NCBI GenBank assembly: GCA_905373475.1
Contig: CAJPTC010000003.1
Coordinates: forward strand, 24,883-88,882
DNA length: 64,000 nt
Direction of reading: 5' to 3'
Origin: Bacteroidia bacterium
GTDB taxonomy: Bacteria > Bacteroidota > Bacteroidia > Bacteroidales > CAJPTX01
A program made the position numbers and the translations under genes. Shown in pieces: positions 9,950 to 16,856 of this stretch. Each line of letters opens with the position of its first letter. Within the stretch, counting starts at the first letter, position 1. Below the pieces are notes generated by a model. It searched no databases and was not told where the DNA came from. It saw only the letters and a list, made by a program, of their open reading frames with translations.

Positions 9950-12631
9950 CTAAAATTTTACGCGGAGGGCGAGAAGCAGATGTCCTGGCATGCGGCGATA
10001 TAACGTGCTTGAATACATATTGATGTCGGCAGTGCTTTGCCACCATTCGTTCTGGCGGAGGTGTAGAAGCTTCTTACCGCGCACTGACAAATCAAAATTC
10101 CCTATCTGATAGTTCATGGTTACATCAAAATCGTACATGTCGCGCAATAGTTTTTCCTCTTGTATGAAAGAATAGTAGCCTGCCAACATCGCATTGAACT
10201 TTTTCCAACGAAAGCGCAATGAAGCACGCCCTGTTAGTTCTTCGTAGCTAGAGGTTAGGGCATCAGCTGCCGAGAGTTTGTTGTCGCTGCGTTCGTACTT
10301 GCCCTGTATACCAAAATTGAGAAGTGTGTGACGGAAGCGTGAGAAGAAGCCGATGTCTGCATTTACTAAATCGCTTGAAAGGCTCTCATCTCTTACAGTA
10401 TTGCGTTTTACACTTTCGGAGGTAGAATGTACATGAGCGGCGATTTTGGCATCAATGGGAAGCGAACCTAGCCCCTTTGTTATATTTAACGAGCCATAGA
10501 TACGGTATGACGAGCCGCCATCTATGTAGTGTAAGTAGGAAACCAGATCTTGCGTTCTTGTTATGCTCTGCGCTTTGTCGCCCTGTGTTGCGTATGCTGT
10601 GTACGCAAAAAGCATGAAGTTGTTGAAAAGGCTAACATAGCTATATTGCACATTGAATTCGTCTTGCTCTACGAAGGGTTTTTGCATGAGTGAAGGCGTG
10701 ATATATTGTCGGTAACTAATTACCCATGGAAGGCGCGAAAGTTGCTCGCTTTCGCTGAGCGTATGGGTTCGTTGTGCCGTAAAAGTGATGCTGTGGTAGG
10801 AGGTAAATTCCATCTTTAGCGAAGCCTTAGGCTCTAGATAGGCGAATGAGTTCGTGCGGAGTGTGTAAGGCGAGGTATGTAACTGGTAGTACGAAAAATA
10901 ACTCCCGAGCGTGAAACGGAAGATACTCACATTTTTCATCAGACCGAGATAAGGGTGTAGTGTATGCAAAAGCAAGGTCTCACTCGCTTGCCCCAGATCA
11001 ATTTCTTGTATAAGGCGTGTTGACTTCCCCTGATAAGCCAATTCGCCTGTAAGATATATTTGCCAAAACAGGGGGTAAATAGTGCCCACATAAGCTCGGT
11101 ATTCTGTATTTAGCTTCTCGCGTCGCGGTTGTAATCTATGCCATGTTCCTTCAAATTCATAAGAGAAGGGGAGCATTGTTGCGCTACTTAGCAAGTTGTT
11201 TCTGTTGGCGTAGTTATTGAATGCAAACTTGGCGCCGAAAAAGAGTACTCCGCGTCCCAACAGCCACTGTGCCTCGAGGTCTTCTTTAACGTCATAAGTA
11301 CGTCGTGTACTCGTACGTTGTGCATTGAGGGTACGACTGAGGTAGGCGTTCTTATAGTCCAGAATATTGTCAAGGTCGCTTACGGAAAATTTCGTATCGC
11401 TCTGTAGCGAAAATCGTCGGTTCGGCAGCCATTTGTTTGTAAGAGATTGTGAAATGAGCTGTATGTCCTTCTGTTCCGAACTTTGGTGATAGTTTGTAAA
11501 CTTCCCCGATGGGTCAAAGAAACGCTGTATACTATTCTCGAGACCAAAAGCTCGGCTGCGGTTGTAGATAGTAGAACTCTTCAGTTTGTAATGCTTGGTA
11601 GGTTTAAGTGTTGCATTGATATTGGCAAGCCCAGACGTACGTTTGTATTCATTGCTCGGAGGGTCTATGAGTTCACTCTCTTCGGGGGTGAGGCGCATCA
11701 CATTATCTCCTTTCCCTGCGAGAAGAGATTCTACGTCTGCGATTTGCATGAAGTAGTCCTCAATAGAGAAAACGGGTTCGCCCGTATTGTTGCCGTTGAG
11801 CATTGCACTGACTGAGCCTTTGGGAAGGAGCGATAGTAACGAAGCTTTTCCTTCAAATTTATTGATGATGCCCCCAGCTCCCTCAGCCGATCCATTAAGG
11901 GTTAGTTTCTTTTCCGACTTAAGGTTAAGAGCCGTCATCTTTTTGTCGCGAAACTGGGAAGCGATATCATCGTCAGCTTTATAGTTTTGTAGCAACTCTA
12001 TGGAGTTGGCAAAATCGGGCGGCAAAGTGTTTATGGCAATTCCCGATGTGGCGTTCGAGAAGATATCTTCGTTGTTCACAAGTACTTTATCTACCTCTTT
12101 GCCTTGAAAATAGACCTTTCCATTCTTATCTACGTTCATGCCAGGCATTTGGTCAATCACTTCCCCAATACTGCGCTCGTCTCCCTGAGTATAACTCTTT
12201 GGGTTATAGACAATCGTATCGCCTTTTTCGTACATGTCTGGAGCTTGAGCAATGATGACCACATCCTCCATCCCCACGTTCTCCTCTGGCAGGGTAACTG
12301 TAAGTGAGCTGGGGAAGTCGTGTTGTACAAAACGATGCAGATAGGGTACAAAACCCATAGAACGAATACTCAGCCACAATTCGGGACTAGTCTTCGCGAT
12401 TTGCTTGATTACGAACTCTCCGCTGTTATTGGTAATGGCGTAGCGAATATTCTGCGTAAGAAGACTATCGGCAGCCACTACCACCGTTGCATAAGCTATA
12501 GGGTGTTGTTTTGGGTCAAGCACCTTGCCGCGCAACGACGCGGTTTGGGCAAAAACTACTGAAGGGAGTATAAGAAATGTGATAAGAGCAACAGCTAGCC
12601 GCTGTGAAAAGCAATGTCTGAAATTCTTCAT
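9950..12631 (-). CDS. Outer-membrane beta-barrel protein with an N-terminal carboxypeptidase-regulatory-like domain and a plug-like segment (TonB-dependent-receptor-like)
   Basis: Signal peptide ...ILPSVVFAQ. A CarboxypepD_reg-like N-terminus follows (SLRGKVLDPKQHPIAYATVVV), then a plug-like stretch (GDERSIGEVIDQMPGMNVDKNGKVYFQGKEVDKVLVNNEDIF). The C-terminus is LALRVKF. The gene is followed by GLPGLI genes, a pairing I recall as typical. Confidence 0.75.
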   Translation of the reverse strand: MKNFRHCFSQRLAVALITFLILPSVVFAQTASLRGKVLDPKQHPIAYATVVVAADSLLTQNIRYAITNNSGEFVIKQIAKTSPELWLSIRSMGFVPYLHRFVQHDFPSSLTVTLPEENVGMEDVVIIAQAPDMYEKGDTIVYNPKSYTQGDERSIGEVIDQMPGMNVDKNGKVYFQGKEVDKVLVNNEDIFSNATSGIAINTLPPDFANSIELLQNYKADDDIASQFRDKKMTALNLKSEKKLTLNGSAEGAGGIINKFEGKASLLSLLPKGSVSAMLNGNNTGEPVFSIEDYFMQIADVESLLAGKGDNVMRLTPEESELIDPPSNEYKRTSGLANINATLKPTKHYKLKSSTIYNRSRAFGLENSIQRFFDPSGKFTNYHQSSEQKDIQLISQSLTNKWLPNRRFSLQSDTKFSVSDLDNILDYKNAYLSRTLNAQRTSTRRTYDVKEDLEAQWLLGRGVLFFGAKFAFNNYANRNNLLSSATMLPFSYEFEGTWHRLQPRREKLNTEYRAYVGTIYPLFWQIYLTGELAYQGKSTRLIQEIDLGQASETLLLHTLHPYLGLMKNVSIFRFTLGSYFSYYQLHTSPYTLRTNSFAYLEPKASLKMEFTSYHSITFTAQRTHTLSESEQLSRLPWVISYRQYITPSLMQKPFVEQDEFNVQYSYVSLFNNFMLFAYTAYATQGDKAQSITRTQDLVSYLHYIDGGSSYRIYGSLNITKGLGSLPIDAKIAAHVHSTSESVKRNTVRDESLSSDLVNADIGFFSRFRHTLLNFGIQGKYERSDNKLSAADALTSSYEELTGRASLRFRWKKFNAMLAGYYSFIQEEKLLRDMYDFDVTMNYQIGNFDLSVRGKKLLHLRQNEWWQSTADINMYSSTLYRRMPGHLLLALRVKF

Positions 12632-12689: not shown

Positions 12690-13412
12690 CTACATTTTTA
12701 TGACTTGTACGCCTGGTGTACCACTAGAGCCTAGCTCCTTTAGTTTCTTGTCTCTTAGCTTGTTGAACTCTTCGCGAGAGTATATTTTACCCTTTGGTGC
12801 AAGAATTTCTACCTTCTTGGCGAGGTACTCTACAGAGGACACTGTAATAGTCTGTAGAGAGTCTTCTATTTCAAGAATCAGCCCAGGTAAGCCATTGTAA
12901 CCCGCTGGTCCTGCTTGGACAGGAAGCTCTGTGCAATACCAAGCCACGGCATAACCTTTCGCAAGTTTTGCACTCGCCTTTTTGCAACGCTTCCCTGCAA
13001 TAACCTTTTCTACATTCTCCAGCGTCCACTCGTACTGCTTTATCGAATCTTTCACCAGAAAAAGCTTATCCATAATCTTGAACAGGGCAATCTTCTCCTG
13101 TTTGCCAAAATCTATGTACAAACTACCATTTTCGCTTTTTTCAGTGGGCTGAATCTGCTGTGTAGCATCAGAACCAGTTTTAGGAGTATAGCTATACAAA
13201 TCTTTATCCAAGAAGAGCTCAAATTGCTGCCCCTTGCCCATTTGTGCTTCAAACGTTTGTTGCGCTAAGGCTCGAATATTCGGATCGGCGATCTGTTTGA
13301 TGCTCTCGGGCATTTTCATCGCTACATCGTAAGTAGCATGTAAGACCTTTGACTGTGCAAAAACGGCAAGTGTAGCAAACAAAAAGCAAGAAAAGAAAAT
13401 GAACCGTTTCAT
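12690..13412 (-). CDS. GLPGLI family protein (paralog 1)
   Basis: Signal peptide MKRFIFFSCFLFATLAVFAQ and the signature YNGLPGLILEIED. Confidence 0.85.
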   Translation of the reverse strand: MKRFIFFSCFLFATLAVFAQSKVLHATYDVAMKMPESIKQIADPNIRALAQQTFEAQMGKGQQFELFLDKDLYSYTPKTGSDATQQIQPTEKSENGSLYIDFGKQEKIALFKIMDKLFLVKDSIKQYEWTLENVEKVIAGKRCKKASAKLAKGYAVAWYCTELPVQAGPAGYNGLPGLILEIEDSLQTITVSSVEYLAKKVEILAPKGKIYSREEFNKLRDKKLKELGSSGTPGVQVIKM

Positions 13413-13510
13413 ACGCCTAAAATTTATGGTAACTCTTAATCAAATTGTCACAGCCAGATGTAAATCTACCAAGCATTAGTATCTAGATAAGTAGCGCCTT
13501 ACATAAGGCG

Positions 13511-14264
13511 TTTAGTGCTTTATCTCCCATTCTGTATCCTCGTTCGTCTCGAGGAAACGTGTAAGAGCTTCCTCCATCATCTTCTCGTATTGTTCAGGGG
13601 TTACTATTTTGCCCTTCGGAGCTAAAAGAGATTGACTCTGCGAAATATATTCAACTTTAGTTGCCGTCGTAATCTTGCTATTTATCTCTGTTTCAAGTAT
13701 AAGCCCAGGCAGTCCATATAGCCCCTCAGGACCAAAGGGAACGGCAATCTCTTTGCAAAACCATGCTATGTAGGTCTCTGTGGTATCCTTATGTGTAATC
13801 CTTGTATCATTGTAGGTGGCAGGCTTCACAGCGACCGTAAGTGTCGCCTTTGTACATTTCTTGCCAAGTATTTCCTTGGTTTCCGTCCCAATCTTCCACT
13901 GTGGCGACGCGGTTAGCTCCTCCTTTATCACTAGCGGCTTATCCGTAAACGCCTTTTGTGTAAGCCTCTCTTTAGCCTCGAGATCCAGATAGATACTTTG
14001 CACGTTCCCAAGTTTAAAAGAATTTACCCCCTCAAGAGAAGAATTTCCCTTGGCTAGTAACGGCTCAACAGACTTATCTTCGACGATCGTGTAACTAGAG
14101 CGCGTCCCGCTTTGTAGAAGCGTGCTTGTTTCACGTTGCTCAGTATGCTTTTTCAACTCCTCTTCCAACTGTTTCTTTACCTCGTCAGAATAGCCACTCA
14201 CCTCTATAGCAGCACTAATTTTAGAAACAGAAGCATAGCTTACTCGCAAGGTGCGCTGCTGTGC
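13511..14264. repeat. Direct repeat copy A (754 bp) of a 1230-bp-offset duplication
   Basis: A block-by-block comparison with 14741..15494 gives 14 mismatches, and 13828..14209 is identical. Confidence 0.95.
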
Positions 14265-14321
14265 AGAAATGACTGTGCTACACATAAATAAGAAGACCAA
14301 TAGAGTTAATCTTTTCATCAT
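13512..14321 (-). CDS. GLPGLI family protein (paralog A of a near-identical pair)
   Basis: Start moved to MMKRLTLLVFLFMCSTVISAQQ. Signature LYGLPGLILETE. Its 3' 754 bp are 98% identical to 14741..15494. Confidence 0.85.
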   Translation of the reverse strand: MMKRLTLLVFLFMCSTVISAQQRTLRVSYASVSKISAAIEVSGYSDEVKKQLEEELKKHTEQRETSTLLQSGTRSSYTIVEDKSVEPLLAKGNSSLEGVNSFKLGNVQSIYLDLEAKERLTQKAFTDKPLVIKEELTASPQWKIGTETKEILGKKCTKATLTVAVKPATYNDTRITHKDTTETYIAWFCKEIAVPFGPEGLYGLPGLILETEINSKITTATKVEYISQSQSLLAPKGKIVTPEQYEKMMEEALTRFLETNEDTEWEIKH

Positions 14322-14334
14322 TCCTAATAGTGAA

Positions 14335-14363
14335 AAATGCTGGAGAAAAAATCTCCAGCATTT
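14335..14363 (-). terminator. Rho-independent terminator after the small secreted-protein gene
   Basis: AAATGCTGGAG-aaaaaat-CTCCAGCATTT, a perfect 11-bp stem. On the reverse strand it runs into TTTTCAC. Confidence 0.65.
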
Positions 14364-14372
14364 GTACAAAAC

Positions 14373-14627
14373 TTACATGCAAGGTTCCCAATAATCTTCG
14401 TGTATTATATACACCGCAATAACCTTGCCCGTCGTTGCATCTCGGATAACAACGATCCGAGCACGACGCCCTTTGTACTTGCATTGTATCTCTGCATTTG
14501 ACAATTCTGGAGCTACAACCGTTGTTTGTTCCAAAGTTTGTAGCGAGTTCTGACTTGCTCTTGCGTCAAGAACAAACAGCATAGTAGCCACTATAAGTGA
14601 TACTACCATCAATAATCGTTTTACCAT
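14373..14627 (-). CDS. Small secreted protein of unknown function (84 aa, 2 Cys)
   Basis: Start moved to MVKRLLMVVSLIVATMLFVLDARASQ (signal peptide). The mature part is ...AEIQCKYKGRRARIVVIRDATTGKVIAVYIIHEDYWEPCM. It lies in the unique spacer between the two duplicated GLPGLI genes. Confidence 0.5.
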   Translation of the reverse strand: MVKRLLMVVSLIVATMLFVLDARASQNSLQTLEQTTVVAPELSNAEIQCKYKGRRARIVVIRDATTGKVIAVYIIHEDYWEPCM

Positions 14628-14740
14628 GACAAAACAATTTTTATTTAGAGAAGGCGAATTTTGCCCTCTCTTTCTGTTACAAATATAACCAATTTTCTGA
14701 AATCGCAAAATGCAACGCCATTTAAGTTGCAAATAAAGTT

Positions 14741-15494
14741 TTTAGTGCTTTATCTCCCATTCCGTATCCTCGTTCGTCTCGAGGAAACGTGTAAGAGCTT
14801 CCTCCATCATCTTCTCGTATTGTTCAGGGGTTACCATTTTGCCCTTCGGAGCTAAAAGAGATTGACTCTGTGAAATATACTCAACCTTAGTTGCCGTCGT
14901 AATCTTGCTATTTATCTCTGTTTCCAGTATTAGCCCAGGCAATCCATACAGCCCCTCAGAACCAAAGGGAACGGCAATCTCTTTGCAAAACCATGCTGTG
15001 TAGGTCTCTGTGGTATCCTTATGTGTAATCCTTGTGTCATTGTAGGTGGCAGGCTTTACAGCGACCGTAAGTGTCGCCTTTGTACATTTCTTGCCAAGTA
15101 TTTCCTTGGTTTCCGTCCCAATCTTCCACTGTGGCGACGCGGTTAGCTCCTCCTTTATCACTAGCGGCTTATCCGTAAACGCCTTTTGTGTAAGCCTCTC
15201 TTTAGCCTCGAGATCCAGATAGATACTTTGCACGTTCCCAAGTTTAAAAGAATTTACCCCCTCAAGAGAAGAATTTCCCTTGGCTAGTAACGGCTCAACA
15301 GACTTATCTTCGACGATCGTGTAACTAGAGCGCGTCCCGCTTTGTAGAAGCGTGCTTGTTTCACGTTGCTCAGTATGCTTTTTCAACTCCTCTTCCAACT
15401 GTTTCTTTACCTCGTCAGAATAGCCACTCACCTCTATAGTAGCACTAATTTTAGAAACAGAAGCATAGCTTACTCGCAAGGTGCGCTGCTGTGC
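14741..15494. repeat. Direct repeat copy B (754 bp)
   Basis: See copy A. The offset is exactly 1230 bp. Confidence 0.95.
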
Positions 15495-15560
15495 TGCAAC
15501 AACTACCACACACGAGAGCGCAAGAAGTAATAACCCAATCTCTTCATTGAATGCATTCAA
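14742..15560 (-). CDS. GLPGLI family protein (paralog B). The 5' end is ambiguous and possibly frameshifted.
   Basis: The body is 98% identical to paralog A. The only signal-peptide-like start (ATG 15547, MKRL) is out of frame. In-frame options are TTG 15560 or a far-upstream ATG at 15659, which adds about 38 non-signal residues. Confidence 0.7.
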   Translation of the reverse strand: MNAFNEEIGLLLLALSCVVVVAAQQRTLRVSYASVSKISATIEVSGYSDEVKKQLEEELKKHTEQRETSTLLQSGTRSSYTIVEDKSVEPLLAKGNSSLEGVNSFKLGNVQSIYLDLEAKERLTQKAFTDKPLVIKEELTASPQWKIGTETKEILGKKCTKATLTVAVKPATYNDTRITHKDTTETYTAWFCKEIAVPFGSEGLYGLPGLILETEINSKITTATKVEYISQSQSLLAPKGKMVTPEQYEKMMEEALTRFLETNEDTEWEIKH

Positions 15561-15562
15561 TG
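15545..15562. repeat. 18-bp perfect palindrome CATTGAATGCATTCAATG at the 5' end of GLPGLI paralog B
   Basis: Read directly from the sequence. It contains the out-of-frame ATG and shares CATTGA/TCAATG half-sites with the 19460..19474 palindrome. Confidence 0.9.
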
Positions 15563-15734: not shown

Positions 15735-16802
15735 TTATTGGGTGATCGCGGAGTAGTGTAGAGCCTTTGCCACTTTGTTAATCGAGCGTAGCGCATCAGA
15801 TGAGAGTTCTAACCCCTGCTTCAAACGTTGTGTTCGTAAAAGATGCTCAGCCGCCCCAGGGATGCGAATACCTGGGGTTCCTTCGCGTCCGGGGGCGTTA
15901 CGGAAAGTATCTATCCATTCATCTACGGCTGCTCGGAACTCTGCTGCAGGACGAAAAGCATCTATACGCAATGCACCGAAAAAATGCCCCACTCCTTTTC
16001 CTACAGGGTTTGTTAAGATAGGAAGGTAAGCGAATGGCGGAGGTACAAAAGGACCGAAGTTCGCACCACTAAAGAGCGCACTAAAAATATCAACCAGAGC
16101 ACCAACACAAAACCCCTTGTGTCCGCCGTGTGCGACATCGCCGCCTAGAGGCAACATTGCGCCTCCGCGTTTAAGAGTCGCGGCATTGTTGGCAGGTTGC
16201 CCCATTGCGTCTTGTACGATAGAATTGGGTAAAGGGTGAGGCAGTTTCTCTAGTTTCCCTTGTGAGAAGGGGACAGTGGAAAAATCGAATACTAGGTGAG
16301 GGTGTTTTTGGGCAGGGAAAGCCACCGATACGGGGTTTGTACCTAACATACGTGTTGTACCGTTAATGGCTGCTACCAGTGGCTCGGAATTGGTCATAGC
16401 CACCCCTACCATATCCTTTTCAATGGCGAGCATACTGTAGTATGCCGCTACGCCGAAATGGTTACTCCCTCGTACTGCCACCCATCCTGTTCCTGCTGTA
16501 GTCGCCTTCTCTATGGCTATTTCCATTCCGCGTTTTGCCGCCAGAGGGCCGAGGGCTGCATCTGCTTCGAGTGTGGCAGTTGATGGGGTTTGGTAGAGTA
16601 CGCGCATCTCAGGTTTTAGGTTGATACGCTTTGCACGAATCAGTTCGTAGTATCGTTCAACATACACGACACCATAGGCATCCAGACCGCGTAGTTCTGC
16701 CTCGAGAATAGACTGTGTAACCACCTGTGCATCGGCAAATGAGCACCCAATGTTCACGAAAAGCCCTGTGAGGTATTCTTGTAAATAGGAGACTGAAAGC
16801 AT
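15735..16802 (-). CDS. Ldh_2 family (malate/L-lactate/ureidoglycolate-type) NAD(P)H oxidoreductase
   Basis: MLSVSYLQEYLTGLFVNIGCSFADAQVVTQSILEAELRGLDAYGV...NHFGVAAYY...GGHKGF, resembling the AllD/YbiC/Pyr2C-reductase family. An alternative start lies at 16826. Confidence 0.8.
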   Translation of the reverse strand: MLSVSYLQEYLTGLFVNIGCSFADAQVVTQSILEAELRGLDAYGVVYVERYYELIRAKRINLKPEMRVLYQTPSTATLEADAALGPLAAKRGMEIAIEKATTAGTGWVAVRGSNHFGVAAYYSMLAIEKDMVGVAMTNSEPLVAAINGTTRMLGTNPVSVAFPAQKHPHLVFDFSTVPFSQGKLEKLPHPLPNSIVQDAMGQPANNAATLKRGGAMLPLGGDVAHGGHKGFCVGALVDIFSALFSGANFGPFVPPPFAYLPILTNPVGKGVGHFFGALRIDAFRPAAEFRAAVDEWIDTFRNAPGREGTPGIRIPGAAEHLLRTQRLKQGLELSSDALRSINKVAKALHYSAITQ

Positions 16803-16856
16803 AATGCTAAGTTTCAGGAACAACAATAATTAAGCGAAGGTAGCGAGATTTGGGCT

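What the first reader, a model, noticed from the sequence alone, without database searches (positions are those of the whole stretch)
13511..15494. Recent 754-bp GLPGLI gene duplication with mosaic divergence (gene-conversion signature)
A block-by-block comparison at an exact 1230-bp offset shows that 13511..14264 and 14741..15494 differ at only 14 positions (98.1% identity). Thirteen of these fall within 13533..13827 (the C-terminal part of the genes), 13828..14209 (382 bp) is identical, and one more difference lies at 14210. Only 4 of the 14 differences change an amino acid (I/M, P/S, I/T, A/T). The signal-peptide regions and upstream DNA are unrelated, and a unique 476-bp spacer carrying a small secreted-protein gene separates the copies. 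The sharp boundary between a diverged and an identical segment suggests ongoing gene conversion or recombination between paralogs. The excess of synonymous changes suggests both copies are expressed and under selection.
Basis: seen in the sequence. Interest (0 to 1): 0.55.

Follow-up and report, generated by a model that had tools for sequence, protein, structure and literature searches.

The report
Recombining tandem GLPGLI gene pair
Two neighbouring genes for secreted proteins of unknown function share a 754-bp near-identical stretch because they and their alleles in other strains keep exchanging DNA, and the upstream copy in this genome looks broken; this is an ordinary case of paralogue gene conversion, not a fresh duplication.

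Summary
13511-14264 and 14741-15494 differ at exactly the 14 listed positions, with a 382-bp identical run; clustering is non-random (P about 3e-4 to 0.035 by test).

- **Genes.** The repeat is the mature-protein part of two tandem minus-strand GLPGLI genes, B (13512-14321) and C (14742-15556).
- **Flanks are old.** Their signal peptides are homologous (both 21 codons) but only about 52% identical. The flanks have counterparts in relatives, so the 754 bp looks like a homogenised tract, not a duplication boundary.
- **Not private.** The C-small-B-A arrangement recurs in at least six other metagenome assemblies. Other strains carry C-X-A, C-s79-A or a C/B hybrid.
- **Differences are mostly imported.** Eleven of the 14 differences are polymorphisms also seen elsewhere. 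B's 3' haplotype occurs at the C locus of strains lacking B.
- **C looks inactive.** The three private changes are all in C, including Pro to Ser at a family-invariant proline. C also has a 1-nt deletion that separates its ATG and signal peptide from the mature frame.

All data are assemblies, so a partial assembler artefact cannot be excluded. Interest is low to moderate.

The parts
13511..14264 (-). Repeat copy 1. It covers the mature-protein codons, the stop codon and one further base of GLPGLI gene B.
   Evidence: 754 nt, 14 differences from copy 2; sequence.
14741..15494 (-). Repeat copy 2. It covers the mature-protein codons, the stop codon and one further base of GLPGLI gene C.
13828..14209 (-). 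The 382-nt stretch identical in both copies (partner 15058-15439). It is the recently homogenised tract. It carries the C-G-G haplotype at 14057, 14054 and 13944, which is otherwise seen only in loci that contain B or derive from it.
13533..13827 (-). The diverged 3' segment, with 13 differences and dS about 0.16. Copy B carries population haplotype II, which is 1 nt different from the C alleles of L025-L029. Copy C carries haplotype I plus private changes.
13512..14321 (-). GLPGLI gene B, 269 aa, intact. It has an ATG start and a signal peptide MMKRLTLLVFLFMCSTVISA/QQ.
   Evidence: TIGR01200 1.6e-34 and PF09697 1.1e-11. The structure model has pLDDT 79.5 and a PNGase F-II N-terminal-domain-like fold.
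14265..14321 (-). Signal-peptide codons of B. This is the B type, about 90% nt identical to the orthologous gene of the distant relative L003, but only about 52% identical to C's signal-peptide codons.
14373..14627 (-). Small secreted-protein gene of 84 aa (identical to P0027). It has a signal peptide and two Cys, and no family assignment.
   Evidence: It is 77% identical to the gene upstream of B in L003.
14628..14741 (-). C's 3' flank, which is also the promoter region of the small gene. It holds a hairpin plus T-run after C's stop codon, and a Bacteroidetes-type -7 motif TATATTTG at 14680-14687. The same module precedes X and s79 in other strains.
   Evidence: The motif count across the window is at chance level, so its function is inferred.
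14742..15556 (-). GLPGLI gene C. The mature part is intact, but the canonical start (ATG at 15556 or 15547) is out of frame and gives MHSMKRLGYYFLRSRVW followed by a stop. Only in-frame TTG codons remain, at 15560 and 15602. C is probably a pseudogene or poorly exported.
   Evidence: In all other assemblies C is intact at 271 aa.
15529..15540 (-). Site of the 1-nt deletion in C's signal-peptide codons. The window reads GATTGGGTTATT, against GATTGGGTTTATT or GATTTGGGTTATT in the other strains aligned (L001, L005, L008, L010).
13413..13511 (-). B's 3' flank, with a hairpin (CGCCTTAtgTAAGGCG) right after the stop codon. It is shared only with the loci that match the window collinearly through it: the two-copy locus L019 and the single-gene C/B hybrid loci L001 and L005.
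12690..13412 (-). GLPGLI gene A, the third paralogue. It is 240 aa and about 26% identical to B and C, and it is not part of the repeat.
9950..12631 (-). An 893-aa outer-membrane protein resembling a TonB-dependent receptor (CarboxypepD_reg domain, weak Plug match). It is the conserved downstream partner of the GLPGLI genes in every locus.
15735..16826 (-). Ldh_2 family dehydrogenase gene. It is the conserved upstream neighbour that anchors copy C in all conspecific loci.

Best explanation
The 754-bp repeat is the mature-protein-coding part of two old tandem GLPGLI paralogues: upstream C, next to Ldh_2, and downstream B, preceded by a small secreted-protein gene. Homologous recombination keeps the two nearly identical.

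The proposed sequence of events:
1. Non-reciprocal exchange (gene conversion) between the copies can only start and end inside the well-matched mature-coding region. The identity block therefore stops sharply at the signal-peptide cleavage site and at the stop codon, while the signal peptides, promoters and 3' flanks stay diverged.
2. In this genome the 5'/central 437 nt were homogenised most recently, probably from B into C.
3. The 3' 317 nt still carry two different haplotypes that also circulate as alleles in the population: hap I in C and hap II in B.
4. The same repeats and shared promoter/signal-peptide modules make the locus a structural-variation hot spot. It occurs as C-small-B-A, C-X-A, C-s79-A and a C/B hybrid followed by A. 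The hybrid is what a deletion by C x B crossover would produce.
5. In this window C has lost the frame link to its ATG and signal peptide, and has a Ser at the invariant Pro198. It is most likely an inactive copy that can still act as a recombination partner.

Shown directly: the sequence identities, flank homologies, structural alleles, haplotype sharing and the frameshift. Inferred: the direction of conversion, the inactivity of C, and that the hybrids arose by deletion.
For: - **Family.** Both genes are GLPGLI family members.
- **Old signal peptides.** Both are 21 codons with the pattern MKRL-LL...C..V..AQQ, but only about 52% nt identical, against 98% for the mature part.
- **Old flanks.** Window 14715-13508 is collinear with L003 at 79% nt. 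L003's genome-level protein identity is about 75%. C's 3' flank is present in L002, L009 and L025.
- **Recurrence.** The two-gene arrangement occurs in L019, L020 and L021, and in spacer-only contigs L022-L024 (476-nt spacer plus about 55-145 nt of repeat on each side).
- **Concerted evolution.** In the 5' 437 nt, B and C differ at 1 site, while each differs at 3-7 sites from other strains' alleles. dS is 0 in the 5' part against 0.164 in the 3' part.
- **Significant shared tract.** P = 7e-4, 0.035 and 2.9e-4 in three tests.
- **Different tract patterns elsewhere.** L020 has 7 B/C differences in its first 431 nt; L019 has 0.
- **Pervasive recombination.** 42 of 78 site pairs fail the four-gamete test, giving Rm >= 4.
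- **Shared haplotype.** B's 3' haplotype is 1 nt away from the C alleles of the C-X-A strains L025-L029. Eleven of the 14 differences segregate elsewhere.
- **Hybrids.** L001 and L005 have C's 5' end and B's 3' flank, with different crossover points.
- **C damaged.** It has a 1-nt deletion and P198S at a column invariant in 56 family members.
Against: - Every sequence compared is an assembly, mostly short-read metagenomic. Assemblers can pop isolated SNP bubbles or reuse one unitig twice. The 382-nt identity here, the 0 differences in L019, and some mosaics or hybrids in other contigs could therefore be partly artefactual.
- The haplotype counts are small and the strains are not independent.
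- The 1-nt deletion could be a sequencing error, although no other broken gene was seen in the 64 kb.
- The direction of conversion rests on three linked sites.
- No expression data exist. C could still be translated from an in-frame TTG, and one public annotation does call it as a 286-aa protein (P0002).
Confidence: 0.65

Rival explanations
1. This is a simple recent tandem duplication of one GLPGLI gene, followed by ordinary point-mutation divergence.
For: The two copies are 98.1% identical over 754 nt at an exact offset. Copy C is absent from the distant relative L003.
Against: - The identity block ends inside homologous genes, at the signal-peptide cleavage site. A duplication of the gene would have copied the signal peptide and flanks as well. 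Instead they are about 52% identical or unrelated.
- The spacer carries a gene (small) and a B-type signal peptide that are orthologous to L003. The junction therefore cannot be made from the parent sequence of a tandem duplication.
- The arrangement is shared by at least six other assemblies.
- Eleven of the 14 differences are pre-existing polymorphisms, and none is private to B.
- The differences are significantly clustered.
Confidence: 0.07
2. The pattern comes from inter-strain (allelic) homologous recombination rather than intragenomic conversion. The two copies were once fully identical, as in L019. One copy then received a 3' fragment carrying a different population haplotype from another strain's DNA.
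For: - B's 3' haplotype II is found, 1 nt different, at the C locus of C-X-A strains L025-L029.
- L019's copies are identical.
- Rm >= 4 among alleles.
- Nucleotide identity to another species is unusually high in the 5' part of the gene.
Against: - This does not explain why the two copies within one genome share a 5' haplotype (C-G-G at 14057, 14054 and 13944) that B-less strains lack. That still needs exchange between the paralogues.
- An imported tract into B would need its 3' end inside the last 22-94 nt of the gene (between 13605 and the stop codon), because the 3' flanks differ.
- This reading is complementary to the best explanation rather than exclusive of it.
Confidence: 0.3
3. The pattern is an assembly artefact. 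Either the whole duplication is spurious (a strain mixture or repeat mis-join), or the 382-nt perfect identity was created by bubble popping or unitig reuse in a short-read assembly.
For: - The contigs compared here (the window's own platform is unknown) are metagenomic assemblies, and the named ones come from MEGAHIT- or SPAdes-style pipelines.
- Three samples give only a spacer contig flanked by about 55-145 nt of repeat, so the repeat is not resolvable by short reads.
- L019's copies are suspiciously identical.
- The only difference in the 5' part (14210) lies 54 nt from unique sequence, where a k-mer can still phase it.
Against: - The same unique junctions recur in seven independent assemblies: C 3' flank to small, small to B's signal peptide, and B's 3' flank to A. 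They have orthologous counterparts in L002 and L003.
- Copy C has private changes and its own frameshift.
- The 64-kb window shows no other broken genes.
- L020 resolves the two copies with 7 differences.

The duplication itself is therefore real. Only the exactness of the identical tract remains uncertain.
Confidence: 0.12

Closest known systems
Concerted evolution of bacterial paralogues by RecA-dependent gene conversion, for example tufA/tufB in Salmonella and rRNA operons
   Same: Two paralogues in one genome have coding parts that stay nearly identical while the flanks diverge. The identity block ends where homology ends. The copies are more alike within a genome than alleles are between genomes in the converted tract.
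   Different: Here the pair is a tandem direct repeat only 476 nt apart, so the same recombination also produces deletions (hybrid alleles L001 and L005). One partner is frameshifted in this strain. Much of the residual divergence comes from haplotypes that also circulate as alleles between strains.
GLPGLI family (TIGR01200; Pfam PF09697 Porph_ging), a paralogous family of Bacteroidota secreted proteins of unknown function
   Same: B, C and A all score far above the curated cut-offs, carry the GLPGLI motif, and occur as several paralogues next to an outer-membrane barrel gene.
   Different: Nothing in the searched literature assigns a function or describes recombination between members. The fold resembles the N-terminal domain of PNGase F-II without the catalytic domain.
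Silent-cassette antigenic variation systems, such as Neisseria pilE/pilS and Borrelia vlsE (from my own knowledge)
   Same: A non-expressed, start-less copy lies next to an expressed homologue and exchanges segments with it by gene conversion.
   Different: There is only one extra copy. It is 98% identical to its partner, so it offers almost no diversity. It is intact in every other strain examined. No repeats, G4 structures or other conversion-promoting elements were seen. The resemblance is superficial.
N-terminal 'bowl-like' domain of PNGase F-II (PDB 4r4x, 4r4z, 7zgn) and LolA/LprG-type half-barrels
   Same: The predicted structure of B matches these. Foldseek gives E = 8e-8 to 1e-6 and query-normalised TM about 0.5 to PNGase F-II, followed by weaker LolA, LprG and ependymin-like matches. 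Pfam PF22252 gives sub-threshold hits.
   Different: B has no glycanase catalytic domain. Sequence identity is 14-15%, and the model has a disordered loop at residues 85-104. The match suggests a ligand-binding role only by analogy.

Membership tests
GLPGLI family (TIGR01200 / PF09697) | HMM score above the curated cut-off | tested here: met
   TIGR01200 scores are 119.7 bits for B, 107 for C and 138.7 for A, against a cut-off of 50. PF09697 scores are 42-46 bits against a cut-off of 25.
GLPGLI family (TIGR01200 / PF09697) | Conserved G-P...G-L-P-G-L-I motif | tested here: met
   The motif is present in B, C and A. G197, P198 and G203-I208 are invariant in 56 aligned members. Window copy C has Ser at P198.
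GLPGLI family (TIGR01200 / PF09697) | N-terminal signal peptide, marking a secreted or periplasmic protein | tested here: inconclusive
   B and A have canonical-looking signal peptides by eye, but no predictor was available. In C, the signal peptide is out of frame with its ATG.
Gene conversion between paralogues | A tract of high identity inside homologous genes whose adjoining homologous parts are much more diverged | tested here: met
   The mature part is 98.1% identical, against about 52% for the signal-peptide codons of equal length.
Gene conversion between paralogues | The shared fragment is longer than expected given the positions of polymorphic sites (GENECONV or max-chi-square type test) | tested here: met
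   P = 2.9e-4 by site permutation. P = 7e-4 for the run length and P = 0.035 for max chi-square.
Gene conversion between paralogues | Paralogues within a genome are more alike than orthologous alleles between genomes in the tract, and relatives with other tract boundaries exist | tested here: met
   In the 5' part there is 1 difference within the genome, against 3-7 between strains. L020 shows 7 differences in that region and L019 shows none. The numbers are small.
Gene conversion between paralogues | The pattern is present in the DNA molecule and not created by assembly | not testable with these tools
   No reads are available. Spacer-only contigs show that short-read assemblers struggle with this repeat.
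Silent-cassette antigenic variation system | A reservoir of diverse, constitutively silent donor copies | tested here: not met
   There is a single extra copy, 98% identical to its partner. It is intact at 271 aa in all other assemblies.
PNGase F-II N-terminal-domain-like fold | Significant structural match of a confident model | tested here: met
   The model has pLDDT 79.5 and pTM 0.73. Foldseek matches 7zgn_B at E = 7.9e-8 and 4r4x at E = 9.8e-7, with TM 0.49-0.52 normalised to the query.

The most novel reading that the evidence does not exclude
The locus could be a selected, recombination-driven variation system for accessory proteins of an outer-membrane protein resembling a TonB-dependent receptor.

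- One conserved promoter-plus-signal-peptide module is fused to interchangeable mature cassettes (small, s79, or the 285-aa GLPGLI X).
- The C/B pair swaps segments, and one copy is sometimes kept silent.
- Strains would thereby diversify or switch what is exposed at the cell surface, for example under phage or host immune pressure.

The evidence does not exclude this reading, but it shows no switching within a strain, and the diversity between C and B is very low.
Probability: 0.08. Interest if true: 0.6.

Novelty: new member of a known kind. Interest (0 to 1): 0.3.

Why it matters
- **As a worked example.** It shows that an apparently recent duplication in a metagenome-derived genome can be an old paralogue pair homogenised by recombination. 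It also shows that a low dN/dS between such copies says nothing about whether both are expressed.
- **For the GLPGLI family.** The function of this family is unknown. The work documents that these genes sit in a structurally hypervariable slot next to a conserved outer-membrane barrel gene, and that they have the fold of the PNGase F-II N-terminal domain. Both are modest leads to function.
- **For annotators.** It flags a likely pseudogene (C) that one public annotation calls as a 286-aa protein starting from a TTG codon.

Tried and rejected
- **Exact-sequence look-ups.** Look-ups of the window's B (two start choices), A, P0002 and a wrongly delimited small protein found nothing. The small protein worked once the 84-aa form P0027 was used.
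- **Recent tandem duplication.** I considered it and rejected it, because the junction contains a gene and a signal peptide that are orthologous to another species.
- **B's 3' haplotype as an unconverted remnant of an old B lineage.** I rejected this as stated, because the same haplotype sits at the C locus in strains without B.
- **Outgroup polarisation.** Using L002 and L003 gave no excess similarity of B to L003's B: six sites favour each copy.
- **Promoter scans.** The sigma-70 scan and the Bacteroidetes -7 motif scan were uninformative, with counts at chance level.
- **Literature.** A search for GLPGLI gave four papers, none on function or recombination.
- **PDB sequence search.** A search with the 893-aa barrel protein found nothing.
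- **Phase variation at the frameshift site.** I considered it and set it aside, because the run is only GGG/TT, not a long homopolymer.
Full report
**Observation**

One search confirms the finding exactly. The segments 13511-14264 and 14741-15494 are 754 nt each, at an offset of 1230. They differ at the 14 listed positions: 13 within 13533-13827 and one at 14210. The stretch 13828-14209 is identical. Outside the block, identity drops to background. The repeat finder sees the same pair.

The clustering is non-random by four tests:
- The longest identical run of at least 382 nt has P = 7e-4 under uniform placement of the differences.
- The maximum chi-square test puts a breakpoint at 13827, with permutation P = 0.035.
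- A GENECONV-style permutation restricted to the 39 sites that are polymorphic among conspecific alleles gives P = 2.9e-4.
- Polymorphism among other strains is spread evenly along the gene, with 21 sites in the 5' 437 nt and 15 in the 3' 317 nt. The identical tract is therefore not a mutational cold spot (Fisher P = 0.0012).

**Anatomy**

All genes here are on the minus strand. In transcription order they are:
- an Ldh_2 dehydrogenase gene (15735-16826);
- GLPGLI gene C (mature part 14742-15494);
- an 84-aa secreted-protein gene, 'small' (14373-14627);
- GLPGLI gene B (13512-14321);
- a third, distant GLPGLI paralogue A (12690-13412, about 26% identical);
- an 893-aa outer-membrane protein with a CarboxypepD_reg domain and a weak Plug match (9950-12631).

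B, C and A all score well above the curated cut-offs of TIGR01200 and PF09697. The repeat runs from the codon at the signal-peptide cleavage site (A-QQRTL) to one base past the stop codon. It is exactly the mature-protein-coding part.

**The flanks are old, so this is not a fresh duplication**

- The signal peptides of B and C are both 21 codons long and share a pattern. B reads MKRLTLLVFLFMCSTVISAQQ. Intact alleles of C read MKRLGLLLLALSCVVVVAAQQ. Their DNA is only about 52% identical.
- The module from the small gene's promoter through small and B's signal peptide to the end of B (window 14715-13508) is collinear at 79% nt with L003. L003 is a MAG of another species whose GLP_A and barrel proteins are 74-75% identical to those of the window.
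- C's 3' flank is found after the orthologous gene in L002, and in every conspecific locus where another gene follows C.
- A tandem duplication could not have produced a junction that contains an orthologous gene and an orthologous signal peptide.
- The sharp ends of the identity block are what is expected when recombination between two old homologues can only initiate and resolve inside the well-matched coding part.

**Population context**

Protein and contig look-ups recovered about 25 conspecific loci from independent metagenome assemblies. The slot between C and A is structurally polymorphic:

| Arrangement | Loci | Notes |
|---|---|---|
| C-X-A | L009, L011-L018 (some truncated before A), L008, L025-L027 (L028, L029 partial), L002 | X is a 285-aa GLPGLI, 34% identical to C |
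| C-s79-A | L010 | Its SNF and Ldh_2 proteins are 100% identical to the window's |
| C-small-B-A | Window, L019, L020 (ends inside B), L021 (ends before B) | Three spacer-only contigs, L022-L024, carry the 476-nt spacer plus about 55-145 nt of repeat on each side |
| C/B hybrid followed by A | L001, L005 | C's 5' end joined to B's 3' flank |

The hybrid is exactly what a deletion by crossover between the two direct repeats would give. It is also what an assembler would produce if it skipped the loop. The duplication is therefore not private to this genome.

**The mosaic**

In the 5' 437 nt, the window's B and C differ at 1 site, while each differs from other strains' alleles at 3-7 sites. In the 3' 317 nt they differ at 13 sites. 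dS is 0 in the 5' part and 0.164 in the 3' part.

The shared 5' haplotype is C, G, G at 14057, 14054 and 13944. It occurs only in loci that contain B or derive from it: both window copies, both L019 copies, L020's B, L001, and partly L021's C. It is absent from all B-less loci. In L020, C still has the T-A-A type and B the C-G-G type, with 7 differences in 431 nt. This argues for B-to-C conversion in the window's lineage. That direction is an inference from few, linked sites.

B's 3' haplotype is not specific to the B locus. It is 1 nt away from the C alleles of the C-X-A strains L025-L029. Of the 14 differences, 11 are polymorphisms for which both states occur in other strains. Three are private to the window's C, and none is private to B. 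Among ten alleles, 42 of 78 informative site pairs fail the four-gamete test (Rm >= 4). The picture is frequent recombination both between the paralogues and between strains. It is not slow divergence after a duplication.

**State of copy C**

Every other assembly encodes an intact 271-aa C (MHSMKR[L/F]GLLLL...). The window differs:
- It lacks one T in GATTGGGTT(T)ATT (15529-15540).
- The ORF from the canonical ATG (15556 or 15547) therefore ends after 17 codons.
- The mature frame is reachable only from TTG codons at 15560 or 15602. These give an N-terminus without the usual positively charged region.
- One public annotation calls it from the 15602 TTG as a 286-aa protein (P0002).

C's three private substitutions are A38T, P198S and one synonymous change. 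P198 is invariant in an alignment of 56 family members.

No other gene in the 64-kb window looks broken, so a general indel-error problem is unlikely. A single sequencing error still cannot be excluded. The overall dN/dS of 0.11 reflects the history of circulating alleles and does not show that both copies are expressed here.

**What the proteins are**

A model of B (pLDDT 79.5) matches the N-terminal domain of PNGase F-II (7zgn, 4r4x, 4r4z; E = 8e-8 to 1e-6; query-normalised TM about 0.5). Weaker matches follow to LolA, LprG and ependymin-like half-barrels. This agrees with sub-threshold PF22252 hits. The literature searched offers no function. A periplasmic or surface ligand-binding partner of the adjacent barrel protein is a reasonable guess, but it was not tested.

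**Caveats**

All evidence comes from assemblies, and the window's sequencing platform is unknown. Short-read assemblers can erase isolated SNPs inside a repeat or reuse one unitig for both copies. The only 5' difference (14210) lies within k-mer reach of unique sequence, which is the pattern bubble popping would leave. The exactness of the 382-nt identity, L019's zero differences and the single-gene hybrids all need read-level confirmation. The existence of two copies is secure, because the same junctions recur in seven assemblies and have orthologues elsewhere.

**Verdict**

The reading of recombination or gene conversion is supported. The readings of a recent duplication and of both copies being expressed are not supported. 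This is a new example of a well-known process, concerted evolution and structural churn of tandem paralogues, in a family of unknown function. Interest is 0.3.

Noticed in passing
window 14628-14741 and 14555-14627 (minus strand); L009 6817-6945; L010 6817-7000: One conserved promoter region (GCATTTTGCGATTTCAGAAAATTGGTTATATTTG, containing a Bacteroidetes-type -7 motif) and a near-identical signal peptide (MxKRLxLTLLVVIA..FFALNASA / MVKRLLMVVSLIVATMLFVLDARA) are fused in different strains to three unrelated mature parts. These are the 84-aa 'small' protein, a 79-aa protein (s79) and a 285-aa GLPGLI protein (X). The module looks like a shared recombination site for cassette replacement.
   Followed up: partly
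window 14181-14321 compared with L003 10001-10140: The B gene is unusually conserved at the nucleotide level with a species that is otherwise about 75% identical at the protein level. Identity is about 90% over the signal peptide and 92-100% over the first 120 nt or so of the mature part (60 of 60 identical at 14240-14181). It then falls to 57-73% (one 60-nt window reaches 0.83). This could be inter-species recombination or a constraint acting on the nucleotide sequence. It remains unexplained.
   Followed up: partly
window 14373-14627 (minus strand): The 84-aa secreted protein has two cysteines and no Pfam match. Only seven homologue clusters were found among 5.8 billion proteins, all in this group of Bacteroidia.
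   Followed up: partly
window 15549-15562 (minus strand): Just upstream of C's ATG the window reads TCATTGAATG, where the other strains aligned (L001, L005, L008, L010) read TCAACGAATG. This two-base change creates the in-frame TTG at 15560 in the same strain that carries the frameshift. It could be coincidence or a compensatory alternative start.
   Followed up: no
window 11589-11619 and 13448-13478: A 31-nt inverted repeat, 77% complementary, pairs B's 3' flank with a site inside the barrel-protein gene. It is probably a chance match.
   Followed up: no
window 9950-12631 (minus strand): The 893-aa partner protein matches only CarboxypepD_reg domains in Pfam, with a very weak Plug hit (E = 0.18). 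It has no relative in the PDB by sequence. It is a divergent barrel protein resembling a TonB-dependent receptor, and it is conserved next to GLPGLI genes in every locus.
   Followed up: partly
L011 and L017 3256-4616; L012 4763-5822; L025 4124-4822 and 7981-9834: Several related metagenome contigs have the SNF, Ldh_2 or barrel genes split or truncated. These are either real pseudogenes or assembly indels. They are a reminder that single-base indels in these assemblies need caution.
   Followed up: no
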